A DNA stretch of 64,000 bases from the NCBI GenBank assembly GCA_011773845.1, contig WVWV01000033.1, positions 7,113 to 71,112 of the forward strand, given 5' to 3'. The notes below the pieces were generated by a model that was not told the DNA's origin, did not search any database, and saw nothing but the letters and a program-made list of their open reading frames with translations. The DNA is from Lysobacterales bacterium (GTDB lineage: Bacteria; Pseudomonadota; Gammaproteobacteria; Xanthomonadales; SZUA-36). Positions 15,900-62,003 of this stretch are shown one piece after another (the stretch's first letter is position 1; each line of letters opens with the position of its first letter). The position numbers were made by a program, and so were the translations under genes.

Positions 15900-15950
15900 G
15901 AGCCGGTCCCGCTCAAGTATTGACCCACGCCCGCCACTCCGCAAGCCGCC

Positions 15951-16823: not shown

Positions 16824-17006
16824 CGTGTCTCCGCCTGGCTTCGATAAGGGCTATTCCATCGGCAGGGCCACCTGCGCTACCCTACCCGCGCCAGTCCAGC
16901 ATCATACCCGCGCGGCTTCGATGCGAACAGTTCGGCTGCGGCACCCTGGCAGTCGGTGCCATTCCCCGGAACCCCGGCGCGATGACAAGCGGATGACGAC
17001 AGCGAC

Positions 17007-18299: not shown

Positions 18300-18416
18300 G
18301 CGTGAGCCGGGGCACATTCCGTTAGCCCGGCGCGCCGCGCGGGCCGCCGGGCGGCGGCGCTGCGATGATCCGGATGCCGGGATTCCGAACTCCCGGATGG
18401 CCCGCTGGCGGCCGGC

Positions 18417-19937
<1,521 letters not shown>

Positions 19938-19953
19938 CCTCGCGTTCCTGTGT

Positions 19954-21477: not shown

Positions 21478-21485
21478 CGGCCCGC

Positions 21486-22352
21486 TCAGGTGTCCGCGGG
21501 GGACTGCATGACGGCCAGCGCCTGCCGCCGCCACGCCTCGGTCTGTTCCACCTGGTTGAAACTGAACACATGGCAGCCGGCGATGTCGAGCGACTCCTCG
21601 TGCAGCAGCGGCGCTAGCGCCCGCAACAGCGCGTCGGGCGTGTACACCGAGGCGCTCAGGAAGCGCGCCACGGCATCCCGTTTGCGGCGCAGGAACCGCA
21701 GCGAGTCGCCGACGCCGATGCGCAGCGATGTCTTCAGCAGGGTGGCCCGGTCGGACACGCCCGGAATGCCGATCCAGGCCGGCAAGCGGACGCCGCGTGC
21801 CCGGATCGCCCGCAGCCACCGCCCCAGCAGCTGGACATCGAAGCACATCTGCGTCACCAGGTAGGTCGCCAGCGCCTGCTTGCGCTCCAGCTCCGCCAGC
21901 AGCACATCCGCGGCCACCTCCGGGTGGCCCTCCGGGTGGGTGGCAATGCCGATCTCCGCGAAACGGTGGTCGTACTCGGAAATGGCCTGCAGCAATTGCC
22001 AGGCGGTGCCGAACGGGCCGAGCGGCCTGGCGGCGTCGCCACCCGGCACGAAGATGCTGTCCACGGGCAGGTCTTCGAGACGGGCCATGATCTCCCTGAG
22101 GTGCCCGTCGCCCCGCACCATCTTGGCGGCGATGTGCGGCACCACGCGAAAACCCCGGTCCGCCAGGCGGTGCGTCAGATCCAGGGTGGCATCGACCCCC
22201 TTCGTGGGAGAACAGGAAACCGACACGAAGGATCCGGGCGCCAGGTCGGCCAGGCGCCGCTCGATGCTGGGGGTGGGAAAGATCTCCAGGTACGCCTCGC
22301 GCACGAGATGCTCGAGGGCGGCGTCCCGGGGCAGGTTCGGGCTGCCCTTCAT
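21486..22352 (-). CDS. Methylenetetrahydrofolate reductase (MetF)-like protein, paralogue 2
   Basis: The 288-aa tail of ORF 21486-23660 has normal composition ('...SVSCSPTKG...', 'YLVTQMCFD...'). The ATG at 22352 overlaps the upstream stop as ATGA. The N-terminal 436 aa of the long ORF are shadow-like. Confidence 0.8.
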   Translation of the reverse strand: MKGSPNLPRDAALEHLVREAYLEIFPTPSIERRLADLAPGSFVSVSCSPTKGVDATLDLTHRLADRGFRVVPHIAAKMVRGDGHLREIMARLEDLPVDSIFVPGGDAARPLGPFGTAWQLLQAISEYDHRFAEIGIATHPEGHPEVAADVLLAELERKQALATYLVTQMCFDVQLLGRWLRAIRARGVRLPAWIGIPGVSDRATLLKTSLRIGVGDSLRFLRRKRDAVARFLSASVYTPDALLRALAPLLHEESLDIAGCHVFSFNQVEQTEAWRRQALAVMQSPADT

Positions 22353-24343
22353 TCTTGCCTGCGCCTCCGCTGCGGGCGCGCCTTCGACGGCAGGTCGACG
22401 GCGCGCCGCAATTCGGTGAACGGGTCGCTGGCGTGCGGAATGGCCATGGCGGCCACGAAATGCGCCTGGAAGCGTTCCTCGACCGCGGTCTCGATTTTCT
22501 CCACGCGCCGCACCTGCTGCTGGATCAGCGCCCGGGAGGCACGGTCCAGCAGGGCCACGCGCGCGCCCGTGCCGGCCGCGTTGCCGGCGGATGACACCTG
22601 TTCCAGGTCGCAGTCCGGGATCATGCCCAGCACCATCGCGTACTTGACGTCGATCTGCGCGCCGAACGCGCCCGCCAGCCGTATGCGGTCCACCCGCTCC
22701 ACGCCGAGCTTCTCCATCAGCAGCCGGGCGCCGGCGTAGAGGGCCGCCTTGGCCAGCTGGATGGCGCGCACGTCGTTCTGGCGGATCACGATGTGCGGCT
22801 CGCCGTCCCACAGCCGGTAGGCATGGGTGCGCCCGTCCGGCACGACGCGCTCGCTGCGTGCCGCCAGCCGGCCATCGATACGGCCGTCGGCGTCGATCAC
22901 GCCCGCCAGGTAGAGCTCGGCCACCGCCTCGATGATGCCGGAGCCGCAGATGCCGGTGACCCCGCCGTCCGGCAGGCGGTCCCGGAAGTCCGGCTCGTCC
23001 GACCAGGCATCGCTGCCGATGACCCTGAACCGCGGCTCCAGGCTGGCGGCGTCGACCCGCACGCGTTCGATGGCGCCGGGCGCCGCCCGCTGGCCGGCAC
23101 TGATCTGGGCGCCCTCGAATGCCGGCCCGGTGGGGCTCGAAGCCGCCAGCAGCCGGTCGCGGTTGCCCAGCACCAGCTCGGCATTGGTGCCGACATCGAC
23201 GATCAGCGAGACCTCGTCCCGGTCCCAGGGCGCCTCCGCCAGCAGGACGCCCGCCATATCCGCGCCCACGTGCCCGGCGATGCATGGCAGCACATAGGCG
23301 TATCCGCCCGGATGGATGCCGATTTCCAGTTCGCGGGCCGCAATGCTCACCGCCGCATCGCTGGCCAGCGCGAACGGGGCCTGCCCCAGCTCGCTCGGAT
23401 CGTAGCCGAGCACCAGGTGCTGCATGATGGGATTGCCCACCAGCGTAAGTTCCAGTACGTCCTCGACCTGCAAGCCCGCGCCATCGGTCAGCTCGGCCAC
23501 CAGGCCGTTGATGGCCTCCCGCACCACCCGGGTGAGTTCGGCCTCGCCACCCGGGTTCATCATGATGTAGGAGACCCGGCTCATCAGGTCCTCGCCAAAG
23601 CGAATCTGCGGGTTCATGCGCCCGCCACTGGCCAGCACTTCGCCGCTGGTCAGGTCGCACAGGTGCGCGGCGATGGTGGTGGAGCCGATGTCAAAGGCGA
23701 TACCGTACAGCCGCCCCTTGAAACCGGGCCACACACCGACGATCTCGTTGCCATTATGGATGGCGACGGTCACCCGCCACTGGCCCTCGCGCAGCGCCCG
23801 CTGCAGGGCCTGGGTCATGCGCAGATCCCAGTAATGGGCCTCGATGCCCCACTCCCGCTGCAGCGCCTCGCGCAGCCGTTCCAGGTCGCCGCGTGGGTCG
23901 TGCATGTCGGGCGGCGCCACTTCGACGAAATAGGGATGCACCATCGGATCGACGCGGATGTCGTGCGCCTCGTGCGGCTTGCGCACCACCTGGCGGTGCA
24001 CCTGGCTGGTGGCGGGCACATCGATGGCCACGTCACCCAGGATACGGGCCTGGCAGCCGAGACGATGCCCCTCCGGCAGGTCCCGTCGTTCGCGGTAGCG
24101 GGCTTCCGCTTCACCCTCCGCCGACAGGTGCTCCGTGCGCGATACGATGCCGTGCTTGGCGAGTTCACCGGCGGTGGGAAGCACCTGGCAACGCCCGCAG
24201 ATCGCCCGCCCGCCGCAGACCGAATCCAGATCCACTCCGAGGCTGCGTGCCGCCTCCAGCACCGCCGTGCCCTCCGCAAAGCGCCCGCGCTTTCCCGAGG
24301 GGGAGAACACCACCCGGCATTCGGGATGATCGGCGCCGGTCAT
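22349..24343 (-). CDS. RACo-like reductive activase of corrinoid enzymes (2Fe-2S ferredoxin domain + ASKHA/DUF4445 ATPase domain)
   Basis: 664 aa. N-terminal plant-type ferredoxin motif 'CGGRAICGRCQV...GCQA', then ASKHA-type 'GIAFDIGSTTIA' and 'DVGTNAE..' plus 'GICGSG'. Start at ATG 24343. Confidence 0.85.
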   Translation of the reverse strand: MTGADHPECRVVFSPSGKRGRFAEGTAVLEAARSLGVDLDSVCGGRAICGRCQVLPTAGELAKHGIVSRTEHLSAEGEAEARYRERRDLPEGHRLGCQARILGDVAIDVPATSQVHRQVVRKPHEAHDIRVDPMVHPYFVEVAPPDMHDPRGDLERLREALQREWGIEAHYWDLRMTQALQRALREGQWRVTVAIHNGNEIVGVWPGFKGRLYGIAFDIGSTTIAAHLCDLTSGEVLASGGRMNPQIRFGEDLMSRVSYIMMNPGGEAELTRVVREAINGLVAELTDGAGLQVEDVLELTLVGNPIMQHLVLGYDPSELGQAPFALASDAAVSIAARELEIGIHPGGYAYVLPCIAGHVGADMAGVLLAEAPWDRDEVSLIVDVGTNAELVLGNRDRLLAASSPTGPAFEGAQISAGQRAAPGAIERVRVDAASLEPRFRVIGSDAWSDEPDFRDRLPDGGVTGICGSGIIEAVAELYLAGVIDADGRIDGRLAARSERVVPDGRTHAYRLWDGEPHIVIRQNDVRAIQLAKAALYAGARLLMEKLGVERVDRIRLAGAFGAQIDVKYAMVLGMIPDCDLEQVSSAGNAAGTGARVALLDRASRALIQQQVRRVEKIETAVEERFQAHFVAAMAIPHASDPFTELRRAVDLPSKARPQRRRRQE

Positions 24344-24362
24344 GTGCAAACCGCCGCCTCGC

Positions 24363-25265
24363 TCAACGCCGCGGCGGCCGGCGCCGGCGACCGCCGCGGC
24401 GACCCCGTTCGACGCCTGCCCCCGAATCCCGATAGGCGCCGATCCACGCCGCGCACTCGGCGTCATGGCCCATGACCACATTGGCCGCGCGCACCGCCTG
24501 CATCAGCTCGGGCTTGAGTGGATTGGTGATCGCCGAGGTCATCCCGCCCGCGATGGCCATGCCGATGAAGGTGGCGTTCAGTCCTTCCCGGTTCGGCAGG
24601 CCGAAACTGAGATTGGAAGCCCCGCAGGTGGTGTTGACCCGCAACTCCTCGCGCAGGCGCCGCACGATGTGCATGACCTGCCGCCCGGCGGCATTGATGG
24701 CCCCAATGGGCATGACCAGCGGGTCCACCACCACGTCGGACCGCGCAATGCCGTGATCCTCGGCGCGCTCGACGATCTTCTTCGCCACCTCGAAGCGCAC
24801 GTCCGGGTCCTCCGAGATGCCGGTATCGTCGTTGGAGATGGCCACCACCGCGCAGCCGTGCTTCCTGACCAGCGGCAGCACCCGTTCGAGCCGTTCCTCC
24901 TCGCCGGTCACCGAGTTCAGCAAGGCCTTTCCCTGGTAGGCCTGCAGGCCGCTTGCCAACGCCTCGATGACCGACGAGTCGATGCACAGCGGGACGTCGG
25001 TGACCGCCTGGATCAGGCGGATGCACTCGGCCATGATGGCCGGCTCGTCGGCCAGCGGTACGCCGGCATTCACGTCCAGCACCTGGGCTCCGGCCGCGAC
25101 CTGGGCCAGGGCATCCGCCTCGACCCGGCCATAATCGCCGGCCTTCAGCTCCGCTGCCAGCAAACTGCGGCCGGTGGGATTGATGCGCTCCCCGATCACC
25201 ACGAAGGGCCGCCCGAAGCCGATCACCACCTCGCGGCTGGCGGAACTGATGACGGTATCCGTCAT
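24363..25265 (-). CDS. Methyltetrahydrofolate:corrinoid methyltransferase (pterin-binding / dihydropteroate-synthase-like barrel)
   Basis: 'VVIGERINPTGR', 'VLDVN', 'LCIDSS' and 'NSV' are hallmarks of the MeTr/AcsE/MetH pterin-binding domain. Start at ATG 25265. The C-terminus is Arg-rich ('GRRGGRRRRPPRR'). Confidence 0.85.
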   Translation of the reverse strand: MTDTVISSASREVVIGFGRPFVVIGERINPTGRSLLAAELKAGDYGRVEADALAQVAAGAQVLDVNAGVPLADEPAIMAECIRLIQAVTDVPLCIDSSVIEALASGLQAYQGKALLNSVTGEEERLERVLPLVRKHGCAVVAISNDDTGISEDPDVRFEVAKKIVERAEDHGIARSDVVVDPLVMPIGAINAAGRQVMHIVRRLREELRVNTTCGASNLSFGLPNREGLNATFIGMAIAGGMTSAITNPLKPELMQAVRAANVVMGHDAECAAWIGAYRDSGAGVERGRRGGRRRRPPRR

Positions 25266-25305
25266 GCCCGTCGCCTGCCCGGCTGTTGCCTGTGGGCGCC
25301 CGCCA

Positions 25306-25614
25306 TCACCGGGCGCTCGCCCCGGCTCGGCCACCGGCCTTGACCACCCGCTCCAGCTCGGCCGGCGGGAAGCGGCGCTCCAGCGCGCGGGCCCGCTCGC
25401 GGACCAACTGCTCGAGATCGCCCTCGAGCAGTTCCGTCTCGCGGCGCCAGTCTTCCAGGTACGCAGCGCTCGAACCTCGCCCGGCCCGCATCGCGGCCCG
25501 GTCGATGGCCTGTTGGAACCGTGGCTCCAGTTCCTGCTTGCAGCGCTGGCGGCCCTGTTTGCCCACCACCTGGGCCGGGATGTCCCGCCAGTAAATGCTG
25601 GTCAGCTTCACCAT
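25306..25614 (-). CDS. Small conserved protein of the family often annotated 'virulence factor' that accompanies DUF1638/corrinoid clusters
   Basis: 102 aa starting 'MVKLTSIYWRDIPAQVV'. The start overlaps the DUF1638 stop by 7 nt. The family name comes from memory of similar neighbourhoods and is not verified. Confidence 0.55.
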   Translation of the reverse strand: MVKLTSIYWRDIPAQVVGKQGRQRCKQELEPRFQQAIDRAAMRAGRGSSAAYLEDWRRETELLEGDLEQLVRERARALERRFPPAELERVVKAGGRAGASAR

Positions 25615-26204
25615 GCGGCCACCCGATTCCGCAGCACGGCCTCCAGCGGCGCCAGGCCGGTCGGATGTGGATGGAACTCCAGTTTCAGGTAGCGGGCGCA
25701 CTCGCGCGCCCGCTCGGACAATCCGGGCGTATCCGACTGCGCCAGGTAAACGACCCGGCGGTAGTTGCCAAAGTAGCTGTCCCGCAGCTCGGGGTGCCGG
25801 TCGAGGCCCAGCCCGCGCACCACCAGGCGCTCGAAATGCCGCACAAGGAAGTCGGTCAGGTAGAAAGTGCCGGGCTCATCGTTCGCCAGGCGCTCGAAGC
25901 GGCTCGCGCCCGCGAAGAACTGGTAGCAGTGCGCGCCCGGCAGGCGCTCCACGCCATACTCGGTCAGCACGCGGTCCAGCGCCCCGCCGGTCCCGCAGTC
26001 GCCATAGGCGACGAACATGCGGACCCCGTCGGCGCGGTGGCGCTCGATGGCCGTCCGGACCGCACCCGGTATCCGCTGGGGGGTGTTGTGCAGTTCCGCG
26101 GGCAGGCACTGTACGCGCAGCGCCGCCCAGCGGTTGCGGCGCTTGAGTTCAACCAGCTCACGAGCCAGCGCCCCACAGGCGATGATGAGGATTCGCATCG
26201 TCAT
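25608..26204 (-). CDS. DUF1638-domain protein
   Basis: 'MRILIIACGALARE...' and 'FVAYGDCGTGGALD' are typical DUF1638 motifs. Start at ATG 26204 (GGAG 4 nt upstream) or 26198. Confidence 0.7.
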   Translation of the reverse strand: MTMRILIIACGALARELVELKRRNRWAALRVQCLPAELHNTPQRIPGAVRTAIERHRADGVRMFVAYGDCGTGGALDRVLTEYGVERLPGAHCYQFFAGASRFERLANDEPGTFYLTDFLVRHFERLVVRGLGLDRHPELRDSYFGNYRRVVYLAQSDTPGLSERARECARYLKLEFHPHPTGLAPLEAVLRNRVAAW

Positions 26205-26229
26205 CGCACTCCGAGCCCCGCGCTCCCGC

Positions 26230-26931
26230 TCAGCCGGCCTGTCGCCGCTCCATGACCAACTGCTTGGCGACCTCGACGGCGGTGGCGGCATCCCGGCAAT
26301 AGGCGTCCGCGCCGACCGCCTTGCCGAACTCCTCGTTGAGCGGAGCGCCGCCCACCAGCACGATGTAATCGTCGCGGATGCCCTGCTCCTTCATGGCGTC
26401 GATCACCACCTTCATGTAGGGCATCGTGGTGGTCAGCAGGGCCGACATGCCGAGGATGTCCGGTCGCTCGCGCTGCAGGGCATCGATGTAGGCGTCGGCG
26501 TCGGTGTTGATGCCGAGGTCGACGATTTCGAAGCCCGCGCCTTCCATCATCATCCCCACGAGGTTCTTGCCGATATCGTGGATGTCGCCCTTGACGGTGC
26601 CGATCACCATCTTGCCGACCGGCTCGGCACCGGTCTCCGCCAGCAGCGGGCGCAGGATCGCCATGCCGGCCTTCATCGCGTTGGCCGCCAGCAGCACCTC
26701 GGGCACGAACAGGATGCCGTCGCGAAAGTCCTCGCCAACGATGTTCATGCCCGCCACCAGCGCCTCGTCCAGCAGCTTCTTCGGGTCCCAGCCACGCTCC
26801 AGCAAGATCTGCGTGCCCTCGGCGATCTCCTCGGCCAGGCCGTCGTACAGGTCGTCCCACATCTGCTCGACCAGTTCCTCGTCACCAAGTTCGGCGAGCA
26901 CCAGGTCGTCCGTGTCGTGTTCCTGCGTCAT
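26230..26931 (-). CDS. Corrinoid (cobalamin-binding) methyl-carrier protein
   Basis: B12-binding cap helices followed by the Rossmann domain with the DxHxxG motif 'GDIHDIGKN', then 'SALLTTT' and 'VGGAP'. Start at ATG 26931 or GTG 26940. Confidence 0.9.
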   Translation of the reverse strand: MTQEHDTDDLVLAELGDEELVEQMWDDLYDGLAEEIAEGTQILLERGWDPKKLLDEALVAGMNIVGEDFRDGILFVPEVLLAANAMKAGMAILRPLLAETGAEPVGKMVIGTVKGDIHDIGKNLVGMMMEGAGFEIVDLGINTDADAYIDALQRERPDILGMSALLTTTMPYMKVVIDAMKEQGIRDDYIVLVGGAPLNEEFGKAVGADAYCRDAATAVEVAKQLVMERRQAG

Positions 26932-27037
26932 CGCGTCCACCGCTCAGAAAAAACCACCTGGATCATGCCGACCCCGATGGTTTTGAACCCGCATCTTCCG
27001 ACACTTGCCGGGCGCAGTCAATGAGCCCCGCCGTGGC

Positions 27038-47115: not shown

Positions 47116-48186
47116 TCAGCGCTGCCCGCGCCTCGCCCGGCCGGCATACAGCCCCACGCCGAGCGTCAGCATGGCCAGCAGGGCCAGCATCCATTCGCTG
47201 AGCGTCGGCACCGGAATGACCTCCGGCGGTGGCGGTGGCGGTGGCGGCGGCCCCGTATTGGTGAAAATGCAGGTGTAGGTCAGCCCACCCGCCACGGTGA
47301 GGTCAACCGAGCTGCTGCCGGAGGCAACGAGCACGTCCGCCTGGTAACATTCCACGGATGCCGTGAACCCCGCCTTCGTCGTTTCGGTAATCGTGTAGGT
47401 ATCGTTGGTTACGCCGGTGAACTGCTCGACCCCGCCGCCAGCGGCTATGCTGAAACCGCCAAGTTCGCCGGAGAAGTCCCAGGCTGACGCCGGGGGCGTG
47501 ACGCCATCCGGCTCGAGGTCCTTGACCACGTTGATGACGTTTCCTTCAGGAGGCGGCGGCGGTTCGTCGCAGGCCAGTACGGATCCCCCGCCGTCGTGGA
47601 AAATCTCCAGGCACACGGCGTCGACCTTGACCTCGGCTGTGACGATCTTCTCGAACACCACGCCGAAAGCATTGTTATTGACGATGGCGGGCGTGAGATC
47701 ACCCGGACCCAAACCCCAACCGGCCAAGGTCCCATTGACGGAGGCGAATGTGGTATCTGCGCAGTTGCCGGACCCTGGGTCTGGGGTCGGGATGTTGCGG
47801 GCAATACCCACGGTGGTCGGCGGATCGACGGTCGCATTCGAAGCCAGCTGAACACTGACATCCTGCCCCCCCTGCGAACCCGCCTTGATGAAGGCCTCGA
47901 CGCCCGTGATGGTCGCCCCACCGGGGATGGTGAATCCGAAATTCGAGATCAGGTTGATTTTACCCACGGCTCCCATGTTGGCGCAGGTATCATCGGGCGG
48001 GCCGATAACCGCCCCTTTCTTGCCGCCCCAGTCCCCGGCCTCGGCCCCTGCATACTCCGCCTGGACATTGTCGACGCCAGCCCACACCAGTGAGGGCAGC
48101 AGCACCGCAAGCCCCATGAGGGCTGCGTTAAGCACTTTCGTTGCTGAGAACCGGGTCTCGGTCGCCTTTCGCTTTCCTGCATTCAT
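47116..48186 (-). CDS. Secreted/surface protein with a C-terminal IPTL-CTERM sorting signal
   Basis: Signal peptide 'LMGLAVLLPSLVWA'. Two polyproline linkers ('DEPPPPPEG', 'GPPPPPPPPPE'). C-terminal 'IPVPTLSEWMLALLAMLTLGVGLYAGRARRGQR' (IPTL motif + TM helix + basic tail). ATG 48186 is preceded by GGAGAA. Confidence 0.8.
   Translation of the reverse strand: MNAGKRKATETRFSATKVLNAALMGLAVLLPSLVWAGVDNVQAEYAGAEAGDWGGKKGAVIGPPDDTCANMGAVGKINLISNFGFTIPGGATITGVEAFIKAGSQGGQDVSVQLASNATVDPPTTVGIARNIPTPDPGSGNCADTTFASVNGTLAGWGLGPGDLTPAIVNNNAFGVVFEKIVTAEVKVDAVCLEIFHDGGGSVLACDEPPPPPEGNVINVVKDLEPDGVTPPASAWDFSGELGGFSIAAGGGVEQFTGVTNDTYTITETTKAGFTASVECYQADVLVASGSSSVDLTVAGGLTYTCIFTNTGPPPPPPPPPEVIPVPTLSEWMLALLAMLTLGVGLYAGRARRGQR
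47225..47251. repeat. Hexanucleotide tandem repeat (GGCGGT)x3 + GGCGGCGGC encoding the polyproline linker
   Basis: Read directly at 47225-47251. It lies in frame within the IPTL-CTERM gene, on the minus strand as CCN codons. Confidence 0.8.
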
Positions 48187-48398
48187 GGGTGTTCTCCCTA
48201 TGCCTTGCATCATTCATGGCGTTCGGTCTCGATTTCGAGTCCGCTTATCACAAAGTATATTCAGATTCTTCTTTATCCGCCCCATTTTCCCCAATTGGAA
48301 GCCATTTTTCAATGAGAGTGCATGGGGTTTTAACGCGTGCGTCTTCCGCGGCATTCGCTTGGCATTTCGCTGGAATGTAGAGAAATATAGCAAGCGAT

Positions 48399-48474
48399 TG
48401 GTGCCGGCTGAGGGATTCGAACCCCCGACCTACTGATTACAAATCAGTTGCTCTGCCAACTGAGCTAAGCCGGC
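48399..48474 (-). tRNA. tRNA-Thr (anticodon UGU), CCA encoded
   Basis: Manual cloverleaf of 76 nt: acceptor GCCGGCT/AGCCGGC, D-arm GCTC-AGTTGGCA-GAGC, anticodon arm ACTGA-TTTGTAA-TCAGT, T-arm GGGGG-TTCGAAT-CCCTC, then ACCA. Confidence 0.93.
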
Positions 48475-48536: not shown

Positions 48537-49253
48537 TCATGGCTCTGGCCGGTCGGCCGGCTCGGCCGCCTGCTCCCCCGGCTCCAGGCAGGTCACTGGG
48601 CGCTGCGCGATGCCGGCATGGCCCTCGCCCAGCAGGTAGGGCGCCGAGGGGCCGCCGGTGTGCTGCGCGTAATCCAGCCAGTACTGCATCTCGGAAGTCA
48701 GCTGCGGCCGCAGGCGGGCCTGGAACCCGGCGGCGGCCAGCTGGTCCATGCGGTTGAGCGCGTTCATCCGGTTGCCGAAGAAGCCCGCGGAAATGGACAG
48801 GTTCCATTCGTCCCCGGAGGCGACGTTGATGTCGGCGAGCCCGGCCGCGCGCATTTCCGCGGCTGCCGCGCGTGCCGCCTCCAGGCTGTGGAAAGGCGGG
48901 ATGTACACCCAGTAACCCCGCGTCACCTCGGCCTCGGCCGCCCAGCCCTGCACCGACTGGACCGCCTCGCGGACCGTCGCCATGGCCGCGTCGCGCATGG
49001 CGGCATCGGTGAACGGACCCAACGTGAAGCAGTGCACCCCGGCCGTGGCATCGGCCCCCGCGCCCGGCAATTCTTCGAGCAGCACGATGCCGGCAAGCTC
49101 GGCCCTCTGCCCGCCCCCGCGCGATGCCGCCTCGACCTCCGGCGGCGGTCGCAGGGCCTTCAGCACCACCAGCAGCAGGTTCAGGAGCAGCAGCGCCAGC
49201 ACCATCATGCGCTGCAGCTGGCGGTCGCCCGCCAGCCGGCGCCAATCGCCCAT
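48537..49253 (-). CDS. SPOR-domain (septal peptidoglycan-binding) membrane-anchored protein
   Basis: 238 aa. TM anchor 'MMVLALLLLNLLLVVL' and SPOR-like repeats ('GYWVYIPPFHSLEAARAAAAEMRAAG', 'ISAGFFGNRMNALNRMDQLAAAGF'). The upstream part of ORF 48537-50165 is shadow-like. Confidence 0.65.
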   Translation of the reverse strand: MGDWRRLAGDRQLQRMMVLALLLLNLLLVVLKALRPPPEVEAASRGGGQRAELAGIVLLEELPGAGADATAGVHCFTLGPFTDAAMRDAAMATVREAVQSVQGWAAEAEVTRGYWVYIPPFHSLEAARAAAAEMRAAGLADINVASGDEWNLSISAGFFGNRMNALNRMDQLAAAGFQARLRPQLTSEMQYWLDYAQHTGGPSAPYLLGEGHAGIAQRPVTCLEPGEQAAEPADRPEP

Positions 49254-49258
49254 CGTCT

Positions 49259-50251
49259 TCACCCTCCGCCCCGGCCCGCGCGCAGCAGGCTGGCCTCGCC
49301 GGCCAGCACCTCCTGCCGGCGCCCGTCGACATCCAGCCACAGGCCGCCGCGCTCGCTGACGCCGCGCGCCACCCCCCGCAGGCGGGCGCCGCCCTGCTGC
49401 ACGGAAACGCGCCGGCCCCACAGCGCGTCGGCCCGCCGCCATGCCGGCCGAAACACGCCAAACCCATGCGCCTCGAAGCGCTGCATGGATTGCAGCAGCT
49501 CGGCCAGCACCGCGGCCGCCAGCGCGTTGCGCGATACCGTTCCCAGCGCGCTGCCCAGGTCGGTCCACGGCTGGTCGATCAGTTCGCGGGCCTGGCTGTC
49601 CGCGGGCATGTGGACGTTGATGCCGATCCCCATCACGGCCCGGCAGGGCCCGTTGGCGTCGCCCTGGATCTCGACCAGGCACCCGCCCAGCTTGCGCCCG
49701 TCCACCACCAGGTCGTTGGGCCACTTGACGCCCTGGGCCCGCAGCCCCGCCCCCCGAATGGCGCGCGTCGCGGCCAGGGCCACCACCAGCGGCAGGCCGC
49801 CGAGTTCGGCCACGCCGCGCTCCAAGACCCATCCCAGGCTCAGGTACAGGTTGCGCGCGAAGGGTGAGTGCCAACGGCGGCCGTGGCGACCCCGGCCGGC
49901 GGTCTGGCGTTCCGCCAGCACGGCTGCGCCGTGCGCTTCGTCCCGCCCCAGCTTGCGCACCACGTCGTTGGTCGAATCGCACGTCGCCAGCACCCGTACA
50001 TTTCCCAGCGCGGCGCGCGATGCGCCCATGGCCGCGAGGATGCGCTCGCGATCGAGCAGTTCCAGTGCCTCGCGCAAGCGGTAGCCCTGACCCGGTACCG
50101 CGTCGATGCCGACCCCCAGGGCGCGCAAGGCGCCCACCTGCTTCCAGACCGCCGTGCGCGAGCACCCCAGCTCGGCGGCGATCGACTGGCCCGACCGCGT
50201 CTCGGTGCTGGACAGGAAGCCCGCCAGGAGAAGGTCCGCTGGCCCACCCAC
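49259..50251 (-). CDS. birA: Bifunctional biotin--[acetyl-CoA-carboxylase] ligase / biotin operon repressor
   Basis: N-terminal wHTH 'SGQSIAAELGCSRTAVWKQVGALRALG', catalytic 'QTAGRGRHGRRW' and 'KWPNDL'. GTG start at 50251 lies 5 nt after the plsY stop; the start is less certain than the gene call. Confidence 0.88.
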   Translation of the reverse strand: MGGPADLLLAGFLSSTETRSGQSIAAELGCSRTAVWKQVGALRALGVGIDAVPGQGYRLREALELLDRERILAAMGASRAALGNVRVLATCDSTNDVVRKLGRDEAHGAAVLAERQTAGRGRHGRRWHSPFARNLYLSLGWVLERGVAELGGLPLVVALAATRAIRGAGLRAQGVKWPNDLVVDGRKLGGCLVEIQGDANGPCRAVMGIGINVHMPADSQARELIDQPWTDLGSALGTVSRNALAAAVLAELLQSMQRFEAHGFGVFRPAWRRADALWGRRVSVQQGGARLRGVARGVSERGGLWLDVDGRRQEVLAGEASLLRAGRGGG

Positions 50252-50256
50252 GACCG

Positions 50257-50892
50257 TCAGCGCGCCCGGCGGAACCAACGGGTGAGCCGCGCGCGCTCGA
50301 AACGATGCTCGGTGCCCGCGCGCATGCGCTGCAAATTGCTGCGGTGGGTGAACGCCATGAACGCGGCGCTGGCCACGCAAAATATCCACAGCCCCGGCGA
50401 GGCGTCGAGCCACAACGCGCCCGGCAGCAGGCTGAACCCGGCCAGCACGGTGGCTAGGCCGACGTACCCGCTGAGCGCCAGCGCCACGAGCCAGGTGCCG
50501 ACCATCGGCAACAGCAGGCAGGGCTGGACCACCAGCAACGCGCCCAGCGCGGTGGCCGCGCCCTTGCCGCCCCGGAAACCGTGATAGAGCGGATAGCAGT
50601 GGCCCACGATGGCCGCGAAACCACAGGCCAGCATGGCCACCTCCCGGGCCGTAGCGCCCGGGCTCGCGACCAGGGCGGGCAGCCAGGCGACCGCCACTAC
50701 GCCCTTGCCGACATCCACCACCACCACGCCCAGGGCAAACCAGAACCCCTGGGTGCGAAAGGCGTTGGTGCCGCCGGCATTGCCGCTGCCCAGGGTGCGG
50801 ATGTCCACCTGGCGCAGCTTGCCGAGCAACAATGAGCCCGACAGGGAGCCCAGCAGGTAGGCCAGCAACACCATCCCGGCCAGCGACCACAT
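50257..50892 (-). CDS. plsY: Acyl-phosphate:glycerol-3-phosphate acyltransferase PlsY
   Basis: 211 aa with 'YLLGSLSGSLLLGKL...DIRTLGSGNAGGTNAFR' and 'GGKGAATALG', the canonical PlsY motifs. Confidence 0.95.
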   Translation of the reverse strand: MWSLAGMVLLAYLLGSLSGSLLLGKLRQVDIRTLGSGNAGGTNAFRTQGFWFALGVVVVDVGKGVVAVAWLPALVASPGATAREVAMLACGFAAIVGHCYPLYHGFRGGKGAATALGALLVVQPCLLLPMVGTWLVALALSGYVGLATVLAGFSLLPGALWLDASPGLWIFCVASAAFMAFTHRSNLQRMRAGTEHRFERARLTRWFRRAR

Positions 50893-52703
50893 CAGCCCAG
50901 CACCTCCGGCTGCGGCAGGATGCCGGCGATCAGGCCGCCGCGACCGAAATGCACGCCCAGGGCCGGCCCCGCCTCGGTGATGTGGCAGGAGTGGATCATG
51001 GGATGCCGCGCCAGGATCAGGCGCCGCACCTTGTGCGCCCCCGCGTCGTTGTCCACATGCGCAATCAGCACCCGGTAGAACACGCCCGGCTGCATGCGCG
51101 CCAGCGCGCGCGCCGCCAGCGCGCGTGCGCTGGCGCCCTTGCCGAAACTGACGCCGGCGAACCCCACCGTGCCCCGGCGGGCCATCAGCACCGGCGTGAG
51201 GTTCAGCACATCACACACCTTCTTGACCCAGGCCGGCACCCGTCCGCCGCGCACCGCCCACGACAGGTCCTCGGTAATCGCGATGGTGAGCGCCTGCGGC
51301 GCCATTTCCGCCAACAAGGCCAGGATCTCATCGGCGGTCATGCCCCCCGCGGCTGCCTCGGCCGCCACGATGGCCAGCAGGGCCTGTCCGCAACTGGCAT
51401 TCTCCGTATCGAACACCTCCACGCGCCCCGAGGTGACGCGTTCGGCGGCCGAGGCGGCTGCCTGGGTGGTGCCGCTGAGCTTGCGGGTCAGGCCCACCGA
51501 CACGACCTCGTAACCGTGGCTGCACAGCAACGAGTAGACGCGCCGAAAATCCTGCGCCGGCGGCTGCGAGGTCCGCGGCAGCTCCTCGCTCTCCTCCAGC
51601 ATGCGATAAAACTCGGTCGGCTTGATCGACACCCGGTCGAGGAATTCGCGGTCGCCGAAGCTCAGGCGCACGGGCACGACGTTGATGCCGAGCCGCTCGA
51701 TTTCCGACTCCGGCAGGTCCGCCGCCGAATCCACCACGATGGCGGTGCGGCCCGGCTGGTTCATGAGGCCATGCTGGCGCTGCATGTCGTCGGCTTTCTG
51801 CTGCGTGATCTCGCCAAACGCCTCGCAGGCCAGGAAGACTTCCGCCGGCTGATTGACATGAATGTGCACGCGGATCCGGTCGGGGCTTCCCGCCACCACC
51901 AGCGAGCTGCCGTCAAGCGCCTGCAGGCGCGCCATGACCCGCCCGCGGTCCATGTGCTGGCCGTCGATCACGCACTCGGTGCAGTAGCGGTGGTCCCCGG
52001 GCGCCTCACCGGCCTCGAGGTCGACCGTCGCCAGGTCCTGCATGTCCGCTTCCAGCGCATCGATCTCGCCCCGGTCGGTATACGCCCAGATGCCTTCCAG
52101 CAGGTCCACGAAACCCTGCCCGCCCGCATCCACCACGCCCGCCTGCTTCAACACCGGCAGCTGGTTGGGCGTATTCGCCAGGGAGGCGTGCGCGCGCTTC
52201 ATCCCATCCCTGAGCAGCATGCGGATATCCGTCACGCCCGCGGCCACGCGCTGCGTGAGCTCGTCGGCAAAATCCTCGAGCACGGTGGGCAGCGTGCCGG
52301 CGACCGGCTCGGCCATGGCCGTCCAGGCTTGCTCCGCGCCCCGCGCACTGGCGGCCGCCAGACCATTGGCCGTCAGCAGGCGGCGGCCGCCCGCGGCTTC
52401 GCGAAAGCCCTGGAAGAATTGCGCCATGATGGCGCCCGAGTTGCCGCGCGCACCGTCAAGCGACGCCTCGGTGACCCGCTCCAGCACCTCGCCGAGGCCC
52501 AGCTCCGGGTGCCCACTGAGCCGCTCCAGGATGGCTCGGAAGGTAAAGGCCATGTTGGTGCCGGTATCGCCGTCGGGCACCGGGAACACGTTGATGCGGT
52601 TGATATATTCCCGCCGTCGAAACAGGTGACGAATGCCCGCCGCGAGGCCACGCGCAAGGCGCGGCCCGTCCAGGTATGCAATTGACGGCGGGGTTGAGTT
52701 CAT
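50892..52703 (-). CDS. DAK2-domain (FakA-like N-terminal half) fused to a DegV/FakB-like fatty-acid-binding domain
   Basis: N-terminal 'NVFPVPDGDTGTNM', 'GARGNSG', 'AGVVDAGGQGF' and 'YCTECVI' (Dak2/YloV-like). C-terminal 'TAIVVDSAADLP...VVPVRLSFGDREFLD...PRTSQPP' (DegV-like). The stop overlaps the plsY ATG by 1 nt (TGATG). Start at ATG 52703. Confidence 0.85.
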   Translation of the reverse strand: MNSTPPSIAYLDGPRLARGLAAGIRHLFRRREYINRINVFPVPDGDTGTNMAFTFRAILERLSGHPELGLGEVLERVTEASLDGARGNSGAIMAQFFQGFREAAGGRRLLTANGLAAASARGAEQAWTAMAEPVAGTLPTVLEDFADELTQRVAAGVTDIRMLLRDGMKRAHASLANTPNQLPVLKQAGVVDAGGQGFVDLLEGIWAYTDRGEIDALEADMQDLATVDLEAGEAPGDHRYCTECVIDGQHMDRGRVMARLQALDGSSLVVAGSPDRIRVHIHVNQPAEVFLACEAFGEITQQKADDMQRQHGLMNQPGRTAIVVDSAADLPESEIERLGINVVPVRLSFGDREFLDRVSIKPTEFYRMLEESEELPRTSQPPAQDFRRVYSLLCSHGYEVVSVGLTRKLSGTTQAAASAAERVTSGRVEVFDTENASCGQALLAIVAAEAAAGGMTADEILALLAEMAPQALTIAITEDLSWAVRGGRVPAWVKKVCDVLNLTPVLMARRGTVGFAGVSFGKGASARALAARALARMQPGVFYRVLIAHVDNDAGAHKVRRLILARHPMIHSCHITEAGPALGVHFGRGGLIAGILPQPEVLG

Positions 52704-52877
52704 GTTGAAAAACGCTGGAGCCCGTGGCCCGAGCATAGCATTTTGCGCCTCCTTTTAGACCCCGCCATGGCGAGAAAATCCCGGCGATGGCGAATACCGC
52801 CGCTGCCCGACGCCGGGCAGCAGCGGGCGCCTGGCGTTGCGGCCGGCGGCGCATCGAACCGTGGCTTTCGGCACATC

Positions 52878-60122: not shown

Positions 60123-62003
60123 GTGTCCGGCACCTCCCAGTTTGCCCTGTTCCGCGCGCGGCGTTTCATGCCGTTCTTCATGACCCAGGCACTGGGTGCG
60201 CTCAACGACAACATCTTCAAGAACGCGCTCGCGGCCCTGCTGGTGTTCCAGAGCAGCCGGCTGGCGGGGCTCAACACCGACCAGCTGATCAACCTCAGCG
60301 CCATGGTGTTCATCCTGCCCTTCTTCCTGTTCTCGGCGCTGTTCGGCCAGTTCGCGGACAAGTACGAAAAATCGCGGCAGATCAGGGGCATCAAGCTGTT
60401 CGAGGTGACCATCATGGCGATCGCGACCATCGGCTTCTGGCTCAACAGCCTGCCGCTGCTGCTGGCCGTGCTGTTCCTGCTGGGTTTCCAGTCCACCATG
60501 TTCGGCCCCATCAAGTACGGCATCCTGCCGCAGGTACTGGACCGGCGCGAACTGGTGGGTGGCAACGCCCTGGTGGAGATGGGCACCTTCGTGGCGATCC
60601 TGGCCGGCACCATCGCCGGACCCCAGCTGGCGGGCATCGAGGCCGGCTGGCCGGTGTGGGTGAGCCTGGCGGCGCTGGCGGTTGCCGTGCTGGGCTACCT
60701 GTTCAGCCGCGGCATCCCGGCCGCGGGACCGGTCGCGCCCGACCTGGTGGTGAACTGGAACGTCTTCACCGAGACCTGGCGCAACCTGCGGTTCATCAAC
60801 GAGAACCCGACCGTCCTCAACAGCGTGCTCGGCATCTCCTGGTTCTGGTTCTTCGGCGCCACCTTCCTGGTGCAGATTCCGAGCTATTCCCAGAACGTCC
60901 TGGGCGGCGACGAGGACCTCATGTCCCTGCTGCTGGCCATGTTCATCGTCGGCATCAGCACCGGCTCGCTGCTGTGTGAGCGCCTGTCCGGGCGCCAGGT
61001 GGAGATCGGCCTGGTGCCGTTCGGCTCCATCGGCCTGACCGTGTTTGGCCTCGACCTGTGGCTGGCGAGCCCGCTGCAGGCCAGCCCGGGCCTGTCCATC
61101 GGTGCCTTCCTGGCCGCCCCCGGGAGCTGGCGCATCGTGGTCGACCTGGTGATGATCGGCATTTTCGGCGGGTTCTACATCGTGCCCCTGTACGCGCTGG
61201 TGCAACAGCGCTCGGAGCCCGCTCACCGCTCACGCGTGATCGCGGGCAACAACATCCTCAACGCGTTGTTCATGGTGGTGGCGGCGGTGCTGGCCATGGT
61301 GGTGCTGGGACGGGCGGGGTTCAGCATTCCCGAGCTGTTCATGCTCACCGCCATCCTCAACGCGGTGGTGGCGGTCTACATCTTCACGCTGGTGCCCGAA
61401 TTCCTCATGCGCTTCCTGGTATGGATCCTGATTCATACCATCTACCGGGTTCGACCCAGCGGCCTGGACCGCATCCCGGAACAGGGCCCGGTCGTGCTGG
61501 CGGCCAACCACGTCAGTTTCGTCGACCCCCTGATCATCGGCGGACTGGTGCGCCGGCCGGTACGCTTCGTGATGCATCACCGCATTTACCGCATTCCCCT
61601 GCTGCGCTTCGTGTTCAGAACCGGCAAGGCCATCCCCATCGCCTCCGGCCGGGAGGACCCGGCGATCCTGGAGAACGCCTACCAGCGCATCGGCGAGGTA
61701 CTCGACGCCGGCGAGGTGCTCGGCATCTTTCCCGAGGGCGCCATCACCTGCGACGGCGCGATTCACCCATTCAAGAAGGGCATCGACAAGATCATCGCCG
61801 AGCGCCCGGTGCCGGTCGTGCCCATGGCGCTGTGCCACCTCTGGGGATCGATGTTCAGCCGCCGGGACCCCCTGCTGAAGCGCCGGCCGTACAAGTTGTG
61901 GGCGCGGGTGGAGCTGCGCATCGGCCAGCCCATCGCGCCGCAGGAGGTCAGCGCGGAACGCCTGGAGGCGGAGATCCGGCGCCTGCGCGGCGACGATCAG
62001 TGA
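60123..62003 (+). CDS. LplT-like MFS transporter fused to a PlsC-type (HX4D) acyltransferase domain
   Basis: 626 aa. The N-terminal ~410 aa are a 12-TM MFS ('FFMTQALGALNDNIFKNAL'). The C-terminal domain carries 'ANHVSFVDP' (HX4D) and 'FPEG'. GTG start. Confidence 0.85.
   Translation: MSGTSQFALFRARRFMPFFMTQALGALNDNIFKNALAALLVFQSSRLAGLNTDQLINLSAMVFILPFFLFSALFGQFADKYEKSRQIRGIKLFEVTIMAIATIGFWLNSLPLLLAVLFLLGFQSTMFGPIKYGILPQVLDRRELVGGNALVEMGTFVAILAGTIAGPQLAGIEAGWPVWVSLAALAVAVLGYLFSRGIPAAGPVAPDLVVNWNVFTETWRNLRFINENPTVLNSVLGISWFWFFGATFLVQIPSYSQNVLGGDEDLMSLLLAMFIVGISTGSLLCERLSGRQVEIGLVPFGSIGLTVFGLDLWLASPLQASPGLSIGAFLAAPGSWRIVVDLVMIGIFGGFYIVPLYALVQQRSEPAHRSRVIAGNNILNALFMVVAAVLAMVVLGRAGFSIPELFMLTAILNAVVAVYIFTLVPEFLMRFLVWILIHTIYRVRPSGLDRIPEQGPVVLAANHVSFVDPLIIGGLVRRPVRFVMHHRIYRIPLLRFVFRTGKAIPIASGREDPAILENAYQRIGEVLDAGEVLGIFPEGAITCDGAIHPFKKGIDKIIAERPVPVVPMALCHLWGSMFSRRDPLLKRRPYKLWARVELRIGQPIAPQEVSAERLEAEIRRLRGDDQ

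What the first reader, a model, noticed from the sequence alone, without database searches (positions are those of the whole stretch)
50257..52703. Single-polypeptide FakA(N)-FakB-like fusion (DAK2 + DegV) translationally coupled to plsY in a Gram-negative-type genome
Seen in sequence: the 603-aa protein has a Dak2/YloV-type N-terminal half ('PDGDTGTNM', 'GARGNSG', 'DAGGQGF', 'YCTECVI'). Its C-terminal half is a genuine DegV domain ('IVVDSAADLP...VVPVRLSFGD...PRTSQPP'). Its TGA overlaps the plsY ATG by one base (TGATG). birA, a SPOR gene and tRNA-Thr follow on the same strand with 5-nt gaps between the protein genes.

Established knowledge: in Firmicutes the two-component fatty acid kinase (FakA with a Dak2 domain, plus DegV-family FakB) makes the acyl-phosphate that PlsY consumes. 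Gammaproteobacterial models instead rely on PlsB, or on PlsX/PlsY with acyl-ACP synthetase or FadD.

Inference: this fusion may be a self-contained fatty-acid kinase that feeds exogenous fatty acids directly to PlsY.
Basis: partly seen in the sequence, partly recalled or inferred. Interest (0 to 1): 0.65.

Follow-up and report, generated by a model that had tools for sequence, protein, structure and literature searches.

The report
Single-chain fatty acid kinase beside plsY
This gene fuses the catalytic part of a fatty acid kinase (FakA) to its fatty-acid-carrying partner (FakB/DegV) and overlaps plsY, the enzyme that uses its presumed product; the fusion is real and widespread in Gram-negative lineages but untested biochemically, and the architecture was already known.

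Summary
On the minus strand, 50892..52703 encodes a 603-aa protein with Dak2 (FakA_N), FakA-like_M and a complete DegV/FakB domain. The normal FakA C-terminal domain is absent. The stop codon overlaps the plsY ATG by one base, and birA, a SPOR gene and tRNA-Thr follow.

Every residue shown experimentally to be needed in the two-component Fak system is present and conserved across a divergent family (30-54% identity). These are the Mg/ATP Asn/Asp/Asp, the Cys-His-His of the middle domain, and the FakB Thr/Ser/His carboxylate network plus the catalytic Arg.

The most likely function is a self-contained, probably dimeric, fatty acid kinase that makes acyl-phosphate for PlsY. Covalent tethering would replace the FakB-docking role of FakA_C. 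S. aureus FakA lacking FakA_C is already known to be active.

plsY lies immediately downstream in 47 of 75 testable genomes, including Neomarinimicrobiota. It is absent from that position in Steroidobacteraceae, Woeseiaceae and Coxiellaceae.

This is not a new architecture. Dak2-DegV fusions were reported in 2006, and databases hold thousands annotated only as 'DegV family protein'. I found no biochemical characterisation, and reviews still describe Fak as a Gram-positive system. Verdict: a new variant of a known kind, of moderate interest.

The parts
50892..52703 (-). Fusion gene, 603 aa (an alternative in-frame ATG at 52736 would give 614 aa): FakA_N + FakA_M + DegV, no FakA_C
   Evidence: ORF. 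Pfam and NCBIfam domains. Homologue N-termini support the start at 52703. AF2 model with three confident domains.
52086..52583 (-). Dak2 / FakA_N ATP-Mg domain (residues 52-217 in 614-aa numbering), with N49/D55/D57 equivalent to S. aureus FakA N32/D38/D40
   Evidence: PF02734, 127.5 bits. Alignments to 7rm7, 8vip and 7w7h. Target-normalised TM 0.90-0.91 to S. aureus FakA_N. Asn/Asp/Asp present in 49/49 divergent homologues.
51771..51992 (-). FakA-like middle domain (residues 249-322): dimerisation and Cys-His-His module; C252/H291/H293 equivalent to S. aureus FakA C240/H282/H284
   Evidence: PF21645, 58.4 bits. Alignment to S. suis FakA 7w7h_A. Cys and both His present in 48/49 divergent homologues. 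Roles taken from PMC9136124 and PMC10848957.
50937..51746 (-). Complete DegV / FakB-type fatty-acid-binding domain (residues 331-600); T389/S421/R499/H596 equivalent to S. aureus FakB1 T62/S95/R173/H270
   Evidence: PF02645, 197.6 bits; TIGR00762, 222.8 bits against a cutoff of 99.7. Residue mapping on 6nyu_A. Target-normalised TM 0.83-0.89 to FakB/DegV structures. Ser and Arg 49/49, Thr 44/49, His 41/49.
50257..50892 (-). plsY, acyl-phosphate:glycerol-3-phosphate acyltransferase; its ATG overlaps the fusion's TGA by 1 nt
   Evidence: TIGR00023, 145.8 bits against a cutoff of 137.2; PF02660, 148 bits. Junction sequence. Same arrangement in 47 of 75 testable genomes.
50902..50906 (-). GGAGG Shine-Dalgarno-like sequence inside the 3' end of the fusion ORF, 9 nt before the plsY ATG
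   Evidence: Read directly from the sequence. Its function is inferred.
49259..50251 (-). birA, bifunctional biotin ligase/repressor, 5 nt after plsY
   Evidence: NF008848, 314 bits (below its cutoff of 362); TIGR00121, 174 bits against a cutoff of 83; HTH_11 + BPL_LplA_LipB + BPL_C.
48537..49253 (-). SPOR-domain protein gene, 5 nt after birA
   Evidence: PF05036, 37.3 bits.
48399..48474 (-). tRNA-Thr (TGT), at the end of the co-directional gene string
   Evidence: ARAGORN.
52732..52740 (-). TGcTATGCT, a possible extended -10 promoter element about 27 nt upstream of the start codon (tentative)
   Evidence: It aligns with TGCTAAACT and TGCTAGACT at similar distances in L004 and L005. It was not found by the two-hexamer consensus scan, and its position is not conserved across all loci.

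Best explanation
The gene encodes a single-chain fatty acid kinase. The DegV domain binds a free fatty acid, with the carboxylate held by Thr/Ser/His and Arg. The Dak2 domain binds ATP and two Mg2+ ions. The middle domain supplies the Cys-His-His cluster and probably dimerises the protein. The gamma-phosphate is transferred to the carboxylate while the fatty acid sits in the DegV pocket. The acyl-phosphate product is then handed to membrane-bound PlsY, whose gene is translationally coupled, to make lysophosphatidic acid. Covalent tethering of DegV through a 14-18-residue stretch, at exactly the place where FakA_C sits in canonical FakA, replaces the FakB-docking function of FakA_C. Shown here: the architecture, residue conservation, fold, gene linkage and distribution. 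Inferred: kinase activity, the ligand, the dimer, hand-off to PlsY, and the source of the fatty acid (exogenous or recycled).
For: Domains. Fold: AF2 mean pLDDT 80.6, three domains joined by flexible linkers; Foldseek top hits are S. suis FakA, S. aureus FakB1 and DegV proteins. All experimentally defined catalytic and ligand-binding residues of FakA_N, FakA_L and FakB are present. They are conserved in 49 representatives at 30-54% identity: 49/49 for N/D/D, Ser and Arg; 48/49 for Cys-His-His. Published biochemistry: S. aureus FakA_NL, which lacks FakA_C, is an active kinase with a tenfold higher Km for FakB1 (0.99 vs 0.09 uM), and FakA_C's role is FakB binding (PMC9136124). FakB R173/R170 is essential (PMC9136124; PMC10848957). 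Context: plsY is directly downstream on the same strand in 47 of 75 testable species genomes, with overlapping stop and start codons in about half of them, including Neomarinimicrobiota at 37-40% identity. No terminator-like site lies at the fusion-plsY junction or in the gaps to birA and the SPOR gene; the weak terminator-like hits in the region fall inside the coding sequences. No second DegV or FakA gene lies within 10 kb in any of 80 loci.
Against: No biochemical or genetic data exist for any member. In 28 of 75 loci (Steroidobacteraceae, Woeseiaceae, Coxiellaceae and others) plsY is not adjacent and the neighbours are unrelated, for example ExeA-like and GspB-like genes. The link is therefore specific to some lineages. 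The carboxylate-binding His is replaced in 8 of 49 divergent members. One published model (PMC10848957) has FakA_C itself receiving the fatty acid during catalysis; if that were obligatory, a protein without FakA_C would need a different route. I could not establish whether these genomes also carry plsX, plsB, fadD, or canonical fakA and fakB.
Confidence: 0.75

Rival explanations
1. It is an ordinary FakA/YloV orthologue whose C-terminal half is the usual FakA_C FakB-docking domain, working with separate FakB proteins.
For: FakA_C has a DegV-like fold (PMC10848957), so a reader working from sequence alone could confuse the two. There is a weak sub-threshold FakA-like_C hit of 15.7 bits inside the DegV region.
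Against: DegV scores 197.6 and 222.8 bits over the full profile, against 15.7 bits for FakA-like_C (cutoff 23). The YloV profile is matched only to position 302 of 530, and the FakA equivalog scores 162.7 against a cutoff of 975. The essential FakB Arg, which FakA_C lacks, is present and invariant. The C-terminal half superposes on complete FakB1 and DegV structures with target-normalised TM 0.83-0.89.
Confidence: 0.02
2. The fusion is a lipid-sensing or regulatory protein, or a kinase for a different carboxylate or lipid ligand. Its product is not primarily a PlsY substrate, and plsY adjacency in some lineages reflects a loose lipid-and-cofactor housekeeping cluster (plsY-birA-coaX).
For: plsY adjacency is absent in 28 of 75 loci. 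In S. aureus, Fak also influences virulence regulation (PMC5539427 title and abstract). DegV ligand specificity cannot be read from sequence. The window's clade has an invariant HSCH motif and a second Cys with no known role.
Against: The complete catalytic set for fatty acid phosphorylation is conserved family-wide. Stop-start overlaps with plsY recur in two phyla. All solved DegV structures among the hits are described as fatty-acid-binding proteins (descriptions).
Confidence: 0.13
3. The protein acts mainly in trans as a FakA for additional free-standing FakB/DegV proteins encoded elsewhere, and its own DegV domain is only one of several acyl carriers.
For: S. aureus FakA_NL can phosphorylate free FakB1, although with a Km of 0.99 uM (PMC9136124). 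Many Fak systems have several FakB paralogues (PMC10848957).
Against: The FakB-docking domain is missing. No other DegV gene lies within 10 kb in 80 loci. The tethered DegV keeps every catalytic residue. Whole genomes could not be inspected.
Confidence: 0.08
4. The fusion is an assembly or frameshift artefact that joins separate fakA-like and degV genes.
For: None found.
Against: The identical protein occurs on independent assemblies. Full-length single-stretch homologues of about 600 aa are found in more than 150 clusters at 50% identity and in the 80 best genome loci. Distant members share the same three domains.
Confidence: 0.01

Closest known systems
Two-component fatty acid kinase FakA + FakB of Firmicutes (S. 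aureus, S. suis, B. subtilis YloV/DegV)
   Same: It has the Dak2 ATP-Mg domain with Asn/Asp/Asp, the middle domain with Cys-His-His, and a DegV carrier with the Thr/Ser/His network and the essential Arg. The presumed product, acyl-phosphate, is the PlsY substrate.
   Different: It is one polypeptide instead of two. The FakA_C FakB-docking domain (PF13684) is absent and the DegV domain occupies its position. It is found in Gammaproteobacteria and Neomarinimicrobiota rather than Firmicutes. The gene overlaps plsY. HMM scores fall below the FakA and FakB1 equivalog cutoffs.
Dak2-DegV fusion proteins noted by Erni et al. 2006 (as cited in bioRxiv 10.1101/2021.02.16.431466) and annotated in databases as 'DegV family EDD domain-containing protein'
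   Same: The architecture is the same. The window protein is a member of this large, uncharacterised family.
   Different: Nothing structural differs. This analysis adds the FakA_M domain assignment, the mapping of catalytic residues, and the conserved translational coupling to plsY in particular lineages.
Truncated S. aureus FakA_NL construct (PMC9136124)
   Same: It has the same N and middle domain content, and it is catalytically active without FakA_C.
   Different: It is an engineered fragment that needs free FakB1 at high concentration (Km 0.99 uM). Here the carrier is covalently attached.
Dihydroxyacetone kinase DhaK/DhaL, including single-chain Citrobacter DhaK
   Same: A DhaL/Dak2 nucleotide domain is paired with an EDD-fold substrate-binding domain, and single-chain and two-chain versions both exist.
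   Different: The substrate domain is DegV (fatty acid), not Dak1 (dihydroxyacetone hemiaminal). The domain order is reversed relative to Citrobacter DhaK. [quoted passage not shown]

Membership tests
FakA (NF038248 FakA_VfrB; TIGR03599 YloV) | N-terminal Dak2 domain with Mg/ATP-binding Asn and two Asp | tested here: met
   PF02734, 127.5 bits. N49/D55/D57 align to S. aureus FakA N32/D38/D40. Present in 49/49 divergent homologues.
FakA (NF038248 FakA_VfrB; TIGR03599 YloV) | Middle domain with the Cys-His-His cluster | tested here: met
   PF21645, 58.4 bits. C252/H291/H293 align to S. suis C244/H289/H291. Present in 48/49.
FakA (NF038248 FakA_VfrB; TIGR03599 YloV) | C-terminal FakA_C (PF13684) FakB-docking domain | tested here: not met
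   PF13684 scores 15.7 bits against a cutoff of 23. The YloV profile is matched only over positions 5-302 of 530.
FakA (NF038248 FakA_VfrB; TIGR03599 YloV) | Whole-protein score above the curated cutoff | tested here: not met
   TIGR03599: 268.5 against a cutoff of 396.1. NF038248: 162.7 against a cutoff of 975.
FakB / DegV (PF02645, TIGR00762) | Complete DegV domain above the curated cutoff | tested here: met
   TIGR00762: 222.8 against a cutoff of 99.7. PF02645: 197.6 against a cutoff of 27, covering 270 of 280 profile positions. Target-normalised TM 0.83-0.89 to FakB and DegV structures.
FakB / DegV (PF02645, TIGR00762) | Carboxylate-binding Thr/Ser/His and the essential Arg (S. aureus FakB1 T62/S95/H270/R173) | tested here: met
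   T389/S421/H596/R499 by alignment to 6nyu_A. Conservation: 44, 49, 41 and 49 of 49 respectively.
FakB / DegV (PF02645, TIGR00762) | Free-standing protein of about 280 aa that shuttles between membrane and FakA | tested here: not met
   The domain is the C-terminal half of a 603-aa protein. The FakB1 equivalog NF038249 scores 102.4 against a cutoff of 350.
FakB / DegV (PF02645, TIGR00762) | Binds a long-chain fatty acid | not testable with these tools
   This needs native mass spectrometry, GC of the purified protein, or a crystal structure.
Dak2-DegV fusion family (uncharacterised; database name 'DegV family EDD domain-containing protein') | Dak2 + FakA_M + DegV in one chain of about 600 aa | tested here: met
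   The 120 best 90%-identity clusters and 10 distant representatives at 32-37% identity all share the architecture.
Fatty acid kinase activity (EC 2.7.2.18) | ATP-dependent formation of acyl-phosphate | not testable with these tools
   This needs a radiochemical or coupled PlsY assay.
Dihydroxyacetone kinase (DhaK/DhaL; TIGR02361, TIGR02365) | Dak1 substrate domain, and scores above cutoff | tested here: not met
   No Dak1 hit. TIGR02365: 19 against a cutoff of 138.3. TIGR02361: 20.3 against a cutoff of 575.

The most novel reading that the evidence does not exclude
The FakA_C-less Dak2-M-DegV protein is the self-sufficient, possibly ancestral, form of fatty acid kinase, and canonical FakA_C is a degenerate DegV left over after the carrier became a separate protein. 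It would give many Gram-negative lineages (Xanthomonadales sensu lato, Wenzhouxiangellaceae, Neomarinimicrobiota and others) an acyl-phosphate route for salvaging free fatty acids that feeds PlsY directly, perhaps as a co-translationally assembled kinase-acyltransferase pair. That would contradict the textbook split between 'Fak = Gram-positive' and 'thioester activation = Gram-negative'. It would also provide a natural experiment showing that phosphorylation occurs on the DegV-bound fatty acid without FakA_C.
Probability: 0.3. Interest if true: 0.7.

Novelty: new variant of a known kind. Interest (0 to 1): 0.45.

Why it matters
Reviews describe fatty acid kinase as the Gram-positive way of activating free fatty acids, with Gram-negative bacteria using acyl-CoA or acyl-ACP synthetases (PMC10146087, PMC12594616). 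A conserved single-chain Fak fused in operon with plsY in hundreds of Gram-negative species would extend the acyl-phosphate salvage route well beyond Firmicutes.

It also bears on a mechanistic disagreement. One model has FakB present the fatty acid directly to the FakA_N and FakA_L active site (PMC9136124). The other has the fatty acid pass to FakA_C (PMC10848957).

In practical terms, a one-polypeptide acyl-phosphate generator could simplify the in vitro phospholipid-synthesis cascades that currently use FakA plus FakB plus PlsY (PMC13400652).

The limits are that the architecture is already catalogued and the function is a straightforward homology inference, so the surprise to a specialist is moderate.

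Tried and rejected
(1) Longer 614-aa start at 52736, and a 13-codon upstream ORF from ATG 52741 with an AGGAGG 6 nt before it, ending in an ATGA overlap with ATG 52703. This was considered as translational coupling. Homologue N-termini and the lack of any conserved upstream ORF in relatives make the 603-aa start more likely. The upstream ATGs may lie in a -10-like element, but that is not conserved in position either, and the consensus promoter scan found nothing.

(2) The HSCH motif (residues 571-574 in 603-aa numbering) and the second Cys (C244) as family-wide metal ligands. HSCH is conserved only in the window's clade, and C244 is present in only 33 of 49 divergent members.

(3) Looking for plsX, plsB, fadD or aas near the gene. 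Pfam annotation of 44 window proteins found none.

(4) Looking for a second DegV or FakA gene near the fusion in 80 loci. None was found.

(5) Retrieving Kinch et al. 2005 (PMC2253402). The paper is not held, and Erni et al. 2006 is known here only through a citation.

(6) Seven literature searches for a characterised fused or proteobacterial Fak found nothing.

(7) My crude ORF-based neighbour clustering under-called plsY in high-GC loci, so the adjacency counts come from tblastn instead.
Full report
OBSERVATION

The feature lies on the minus strand. ORF 50892..52736 is 614 aa from the first ATG.

Pfam finds three domains:
- Dak2 at residues 52-217 (127.5 bits).
- FakA-like_M at residues 249-322 (58.4 bits).
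- A full-length DegV domain at residues 331-600 (197.6 bits, profile positions 2-271 of 280).

The normal FakA C-terminal domain, PF13684, reaches only 15.7 bits against a cutoff of 23. NCBIfam agrees. The YloV/FakA profile is matched only over positions 5-302 of 530. TIGR00762 DegV scores 222.8 bits against a cutoff of 99.7.

The stop codon TGA (50894-50892) shares its last base with the ATG of plsY (50892-50890), and a GGAGG lies 9 nt upstream of that ATG. The downstream genes are:
- plsY, 50257..50892 (TIGR00023 above cutoff).
- birA, 49259..50251, 5 nt after plsY.
- A SPOR-domain gene, 48537..49253, 5 nt after birA.
- tRNA-Thr(TGT), 48399..48474.

No terminator-like site falls at the fusion-plsY junction or in the gaps to birA and the SPOR gene. 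The weak terminator-like hits in the region lie inside the coding sequences. The same protein and gene order occur on independent assemblies: Logan ERR2564003 and GCA_012974765.1.

WHAT IT IS

The closest solved structures by sequence are:
- S. suis FakA (7w7h_A), matched only over its N and middle domains (query residues 24-312).
- S. aureus and Thermus FakA N-domains.
- For the C-terminal half, Thermus DegV 2dt8 (E = 1.7e-30), B. subtilis DegV, Thermotoga TM841 and S. aureus FakB1.

An AlphaFold2 model (mean pLDDT 80.6, pTM 0.65) shows three confident domains: a helical bundle at 13-211, an alpha/beta module at 240-306, and a DegV domain at 320-597. They are joined by low-confidence linkers at 219-236 and 308-317. 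This is the same tethered-domain layout that SAXS showed for S. aureus FakA (PMC9136124).

In the Foldseek search against the PDB, the C-terminal half superposes on complete FakB1 and DegV crystal structures with target-normalised TM 0.83-0.89. The N-terminal domain superposes on S. aureus FakA_N with TM 0.90-0.91.

That criterion is not met, so the fusion reading stands.

CATALYTIC RESIDUES

I mapped the residues that published mutagenesis has shown to matter (614-aa numbering; subtract 11 for the 603-aa protein).

| Component | S. aureus residues | Fusion residues | Source |
|---|---|---|---|
| FakA_N, Mg/ATP | N32 / D38 / D40 | N49 / D55 / D57 | |
| FakA_L | C240 / H282 / H284 (S. suis C244 / H289 / H291) | C252 / H291 / H293 | |
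| FakB1, carboxylate network and essential Arg | T62 / S95 / H270 / R173 | T389 / S421 / H596 / R499 | |

The residue roles come from PMC9136124 and PMC10848957.

In 49 divergent family representatives (30-54% identity to the query) conservation is as follows:
- Asn/Asp/Asp: 49 of 49.
- Cys: 48 of 49.
- Each His of the His-x-His pair: 48 of 49.
- FakB-type Ser and Arg: 49 of 49.
- Thr: 44 of 49.
- Carboxylate-binding His: 41 of 49.

The stretch between the end of the middle domain and the start of DegV is 14-18 residues throughout the family.

HOW IT MOST LIKELY WORKS

Rock and colleagues showed three things (PMC9136124):
- S. aureus FakA lacking FakA_C (the construct FakA_NL) is an active kinase.
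- Its Km for FakB1 is 0.99 uM, against 0.09 uM for full-length FakA.
- FakA_C binds FakB.

A protein in which the DegV carrier is covalently attached, at exactly the position of FakA_C, would have no need for a docking domain. I therefore propose a self-contained and probably dimeric fatty acid kinase, working in four steps:
1. The DegV domain acquires a free fatty acid.
2. The Dak2 domain, possibly that of the partner chain (by analogy with the domain-swapped FakA_C/FakA'_N contact in 7w7h; PMC10848957), supplies ATP and two Mg2+ ions.
3. The Cys-His-His cluster completes the active site.
4. The acyl-phosphate is delivered to PlsY.

What is shown here: the architecture, fold, residue conservation and gene linkage. 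What is inferred: the activity, the ligand, the oligomeric state, the hand-off to PlsY, and whether the fatty acids are exogenous or recycled.

DISTRIBUTION AND CONTEXT

The family is large.
- The word-indexed search returned 7,956 clusters at E <= 1e-10. The best 120 all have the three-domain architecture, are about 600 aa long, and are named at most 'DegV family EDD domain-containing protein'.
- The exhaustive search of 50%-identity representatives gave 1,951 hits at E <= 1e-30. Most of the best 150 match as one near-full-length stretch in a protein of about 600 aa, down to 32% identity; a minority are shorter fragments or match in part.
- Ten of the most distant representatives have the same Pfam domains.

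The 80 best loci come from:
- Xanthomonadales/Lysobacterales, including Arenimonas (with the cultured A. oryziterrae DSM 21050) and Dokdonella.
- Wenzhouxiangellaceae.
- Steroidobacteraceae.
- Woeseiaceae.
- Coxiellaceae.
- Neomarinimicrobiota.

Of 75 loci with enough downstream sequence, 47 have plsY immediately downstream on the same strand. In about half of those the stop and start codons overlap by 1, 4, 8 or 14 nt. These 47 include Neomarinimicrobiota and unnamed lineages at only 37-40% identity.

In the other 28 loci, plsY is not within 10 kb and the neighbours are unrelated, for example ExeA-like and GspB-like genes, DinB and rhodanese. The plsY link is therefore strong but specific to some lineages. 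No locus has a second DegV or FakA gene within 10 kb.

The 64-kb window contains no plsX, plsB or fadD. The rest of the genome could not be examined.

COMPARISON WITH WHAT IS KNOWN

The protein works like Fak, but it is not a member of the FakA or FakB equivalog families.
- It lacks FakA_C.
- It scores below the FakA, YloV and FakB1 cutoffs.
- It is not a free-standing carrier.

It is a member of the uncharacterised Dak2-DegV fusion family. That architecture is not new. [quoted passage not shown] 2006)' and notes such fusions in Chloroflexi and Firmicutes.

Seven full-text searches found no biochemical or genetic characterisation of a fused or proteobacterial Fak. Current reviews describe Fak as a Gram-positive strategy (PMC10146087; PMC12594616).

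VERDICT

Novelty: a new variant of a known kind, namely a single-chain Fak without FakA_C that is coupled to plsY in Gram-negative lineages. It belongs to an already catalogued but unstudied family.

Interest is moderate, at 0.45. The function is a direct homology inference and the architecture is known. However, three things would interest specialists in bacterial lipid metabolism and are easy to test:
- The breadth of the family in Gram-negative bacteria.
- The recurrent coupling to plsY.
- The bearing on the role of FakA_C in catalysis.

Noticed in passing
window 60123..62003 (+): A 626-aa protein that combines an MFS transporter (MFS_1, residues 50-329) with a PlsC-type acyltransferase domain (PF01553, residues 443-570). 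From memory, this resembles LplT/Aas-type lysophospholipid uptake and re-acylation. It would be a second lipid-salvage function about 7.4 kb from the fusion gene.
   Followed up: no
window 52700..52753 (-): An AGGAGG at 52753-52748 is followed by ATG 52741, which opens a 13-codon ORF ending in a TGA that overlaps ATG 52703 (ATGA). There is also an in-frame ATG at 52736. Alternatively, TGcTATGCT (52740-52732) is an extended -10 element like TGCTAAACT and TGCTAGACT in L004 and L005. The question is not resolved. Homologue N-termini favour 52703 as the start.
   Followed up: partly
window fusion protein residues 571-574 and 244 (603-aa numbering), roughly 50982..50993 and 51972..51974: An HSCH motif in the DegV domain is invariant in the window's clade (43/43, 43/43, 43/43 and 42/43) but absent from the wider family and from FakB1. 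A second Cys (CTEC) in the middle domain is present in 33 of 49 divergent members and is absent from S. suis FakA. The role of both is unknown; a clade-specific metal site is possible.
   Followed up: partly
loci L030, L031, L036, L042, L045, L063, L066, L069, L076, L080 and similar (Steroidobacteraceae and related): In lineages without plsY adjacency, the fusion gene directly follows a gene whose product ends in ...RFLLPR (GspB-like N-terminus MSxILDAL). That gene is in turn preceded by an ExeA-like AAA ATPase with a peptidoglycan-binding C-terminus. This is an unexplained alternative conserved context.
   Followed up: partly
loci L023, L029, L035, L041, L046, L047, L048, L059, L060, L065, L075 (Arenimonas-type), upstream of the fusion start: A conserved motif GCAGCATGG - about 20 nt - GGCAGACT ends about 10-12 nt before the ATG. 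It may be a promoter giving a leaderless or short-leader mRNA, or a regulator binding site. In several of the same loci a conserved CCCATAATGCCGGCATG lies between the fusion stop and the plsY start.
   Followed up: no
window 47116..48213 (-): A 365-aa protein with no Pfam match has proline runs and a C-terminus VPTLSEWMLALLAMLTLGVGLYAGRARRGQR. From memory, this resembles an IPTL-CTERM or PEP-CTERM-type sorting signal.
   Followed up: no
window 15951..26940 (mostly -): A cluster of two MttB-family methyltransferases, a RACo corrinoid activase, a pterin-binding protein, DUF1638, a B12-binding protein and an MTHFR-like protein. This is a corrinoid-dependent methylamine or quaternary-amine demethylation module in an apparently aerobic gammaproteobacterium. 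A fatty-acid desaturase lies next to it at 14862..15944.
   Followed up: no
loci L013, L016, L018 and others (Wenzhouxiangella and Lysobacterales), downstream of birA: In many relatives a type III pantothenate kinase-like gene (coaX) lies between birA and the SPOR gene. In the window, birA is followed directly by the SPOR gene.
   Followed up: no
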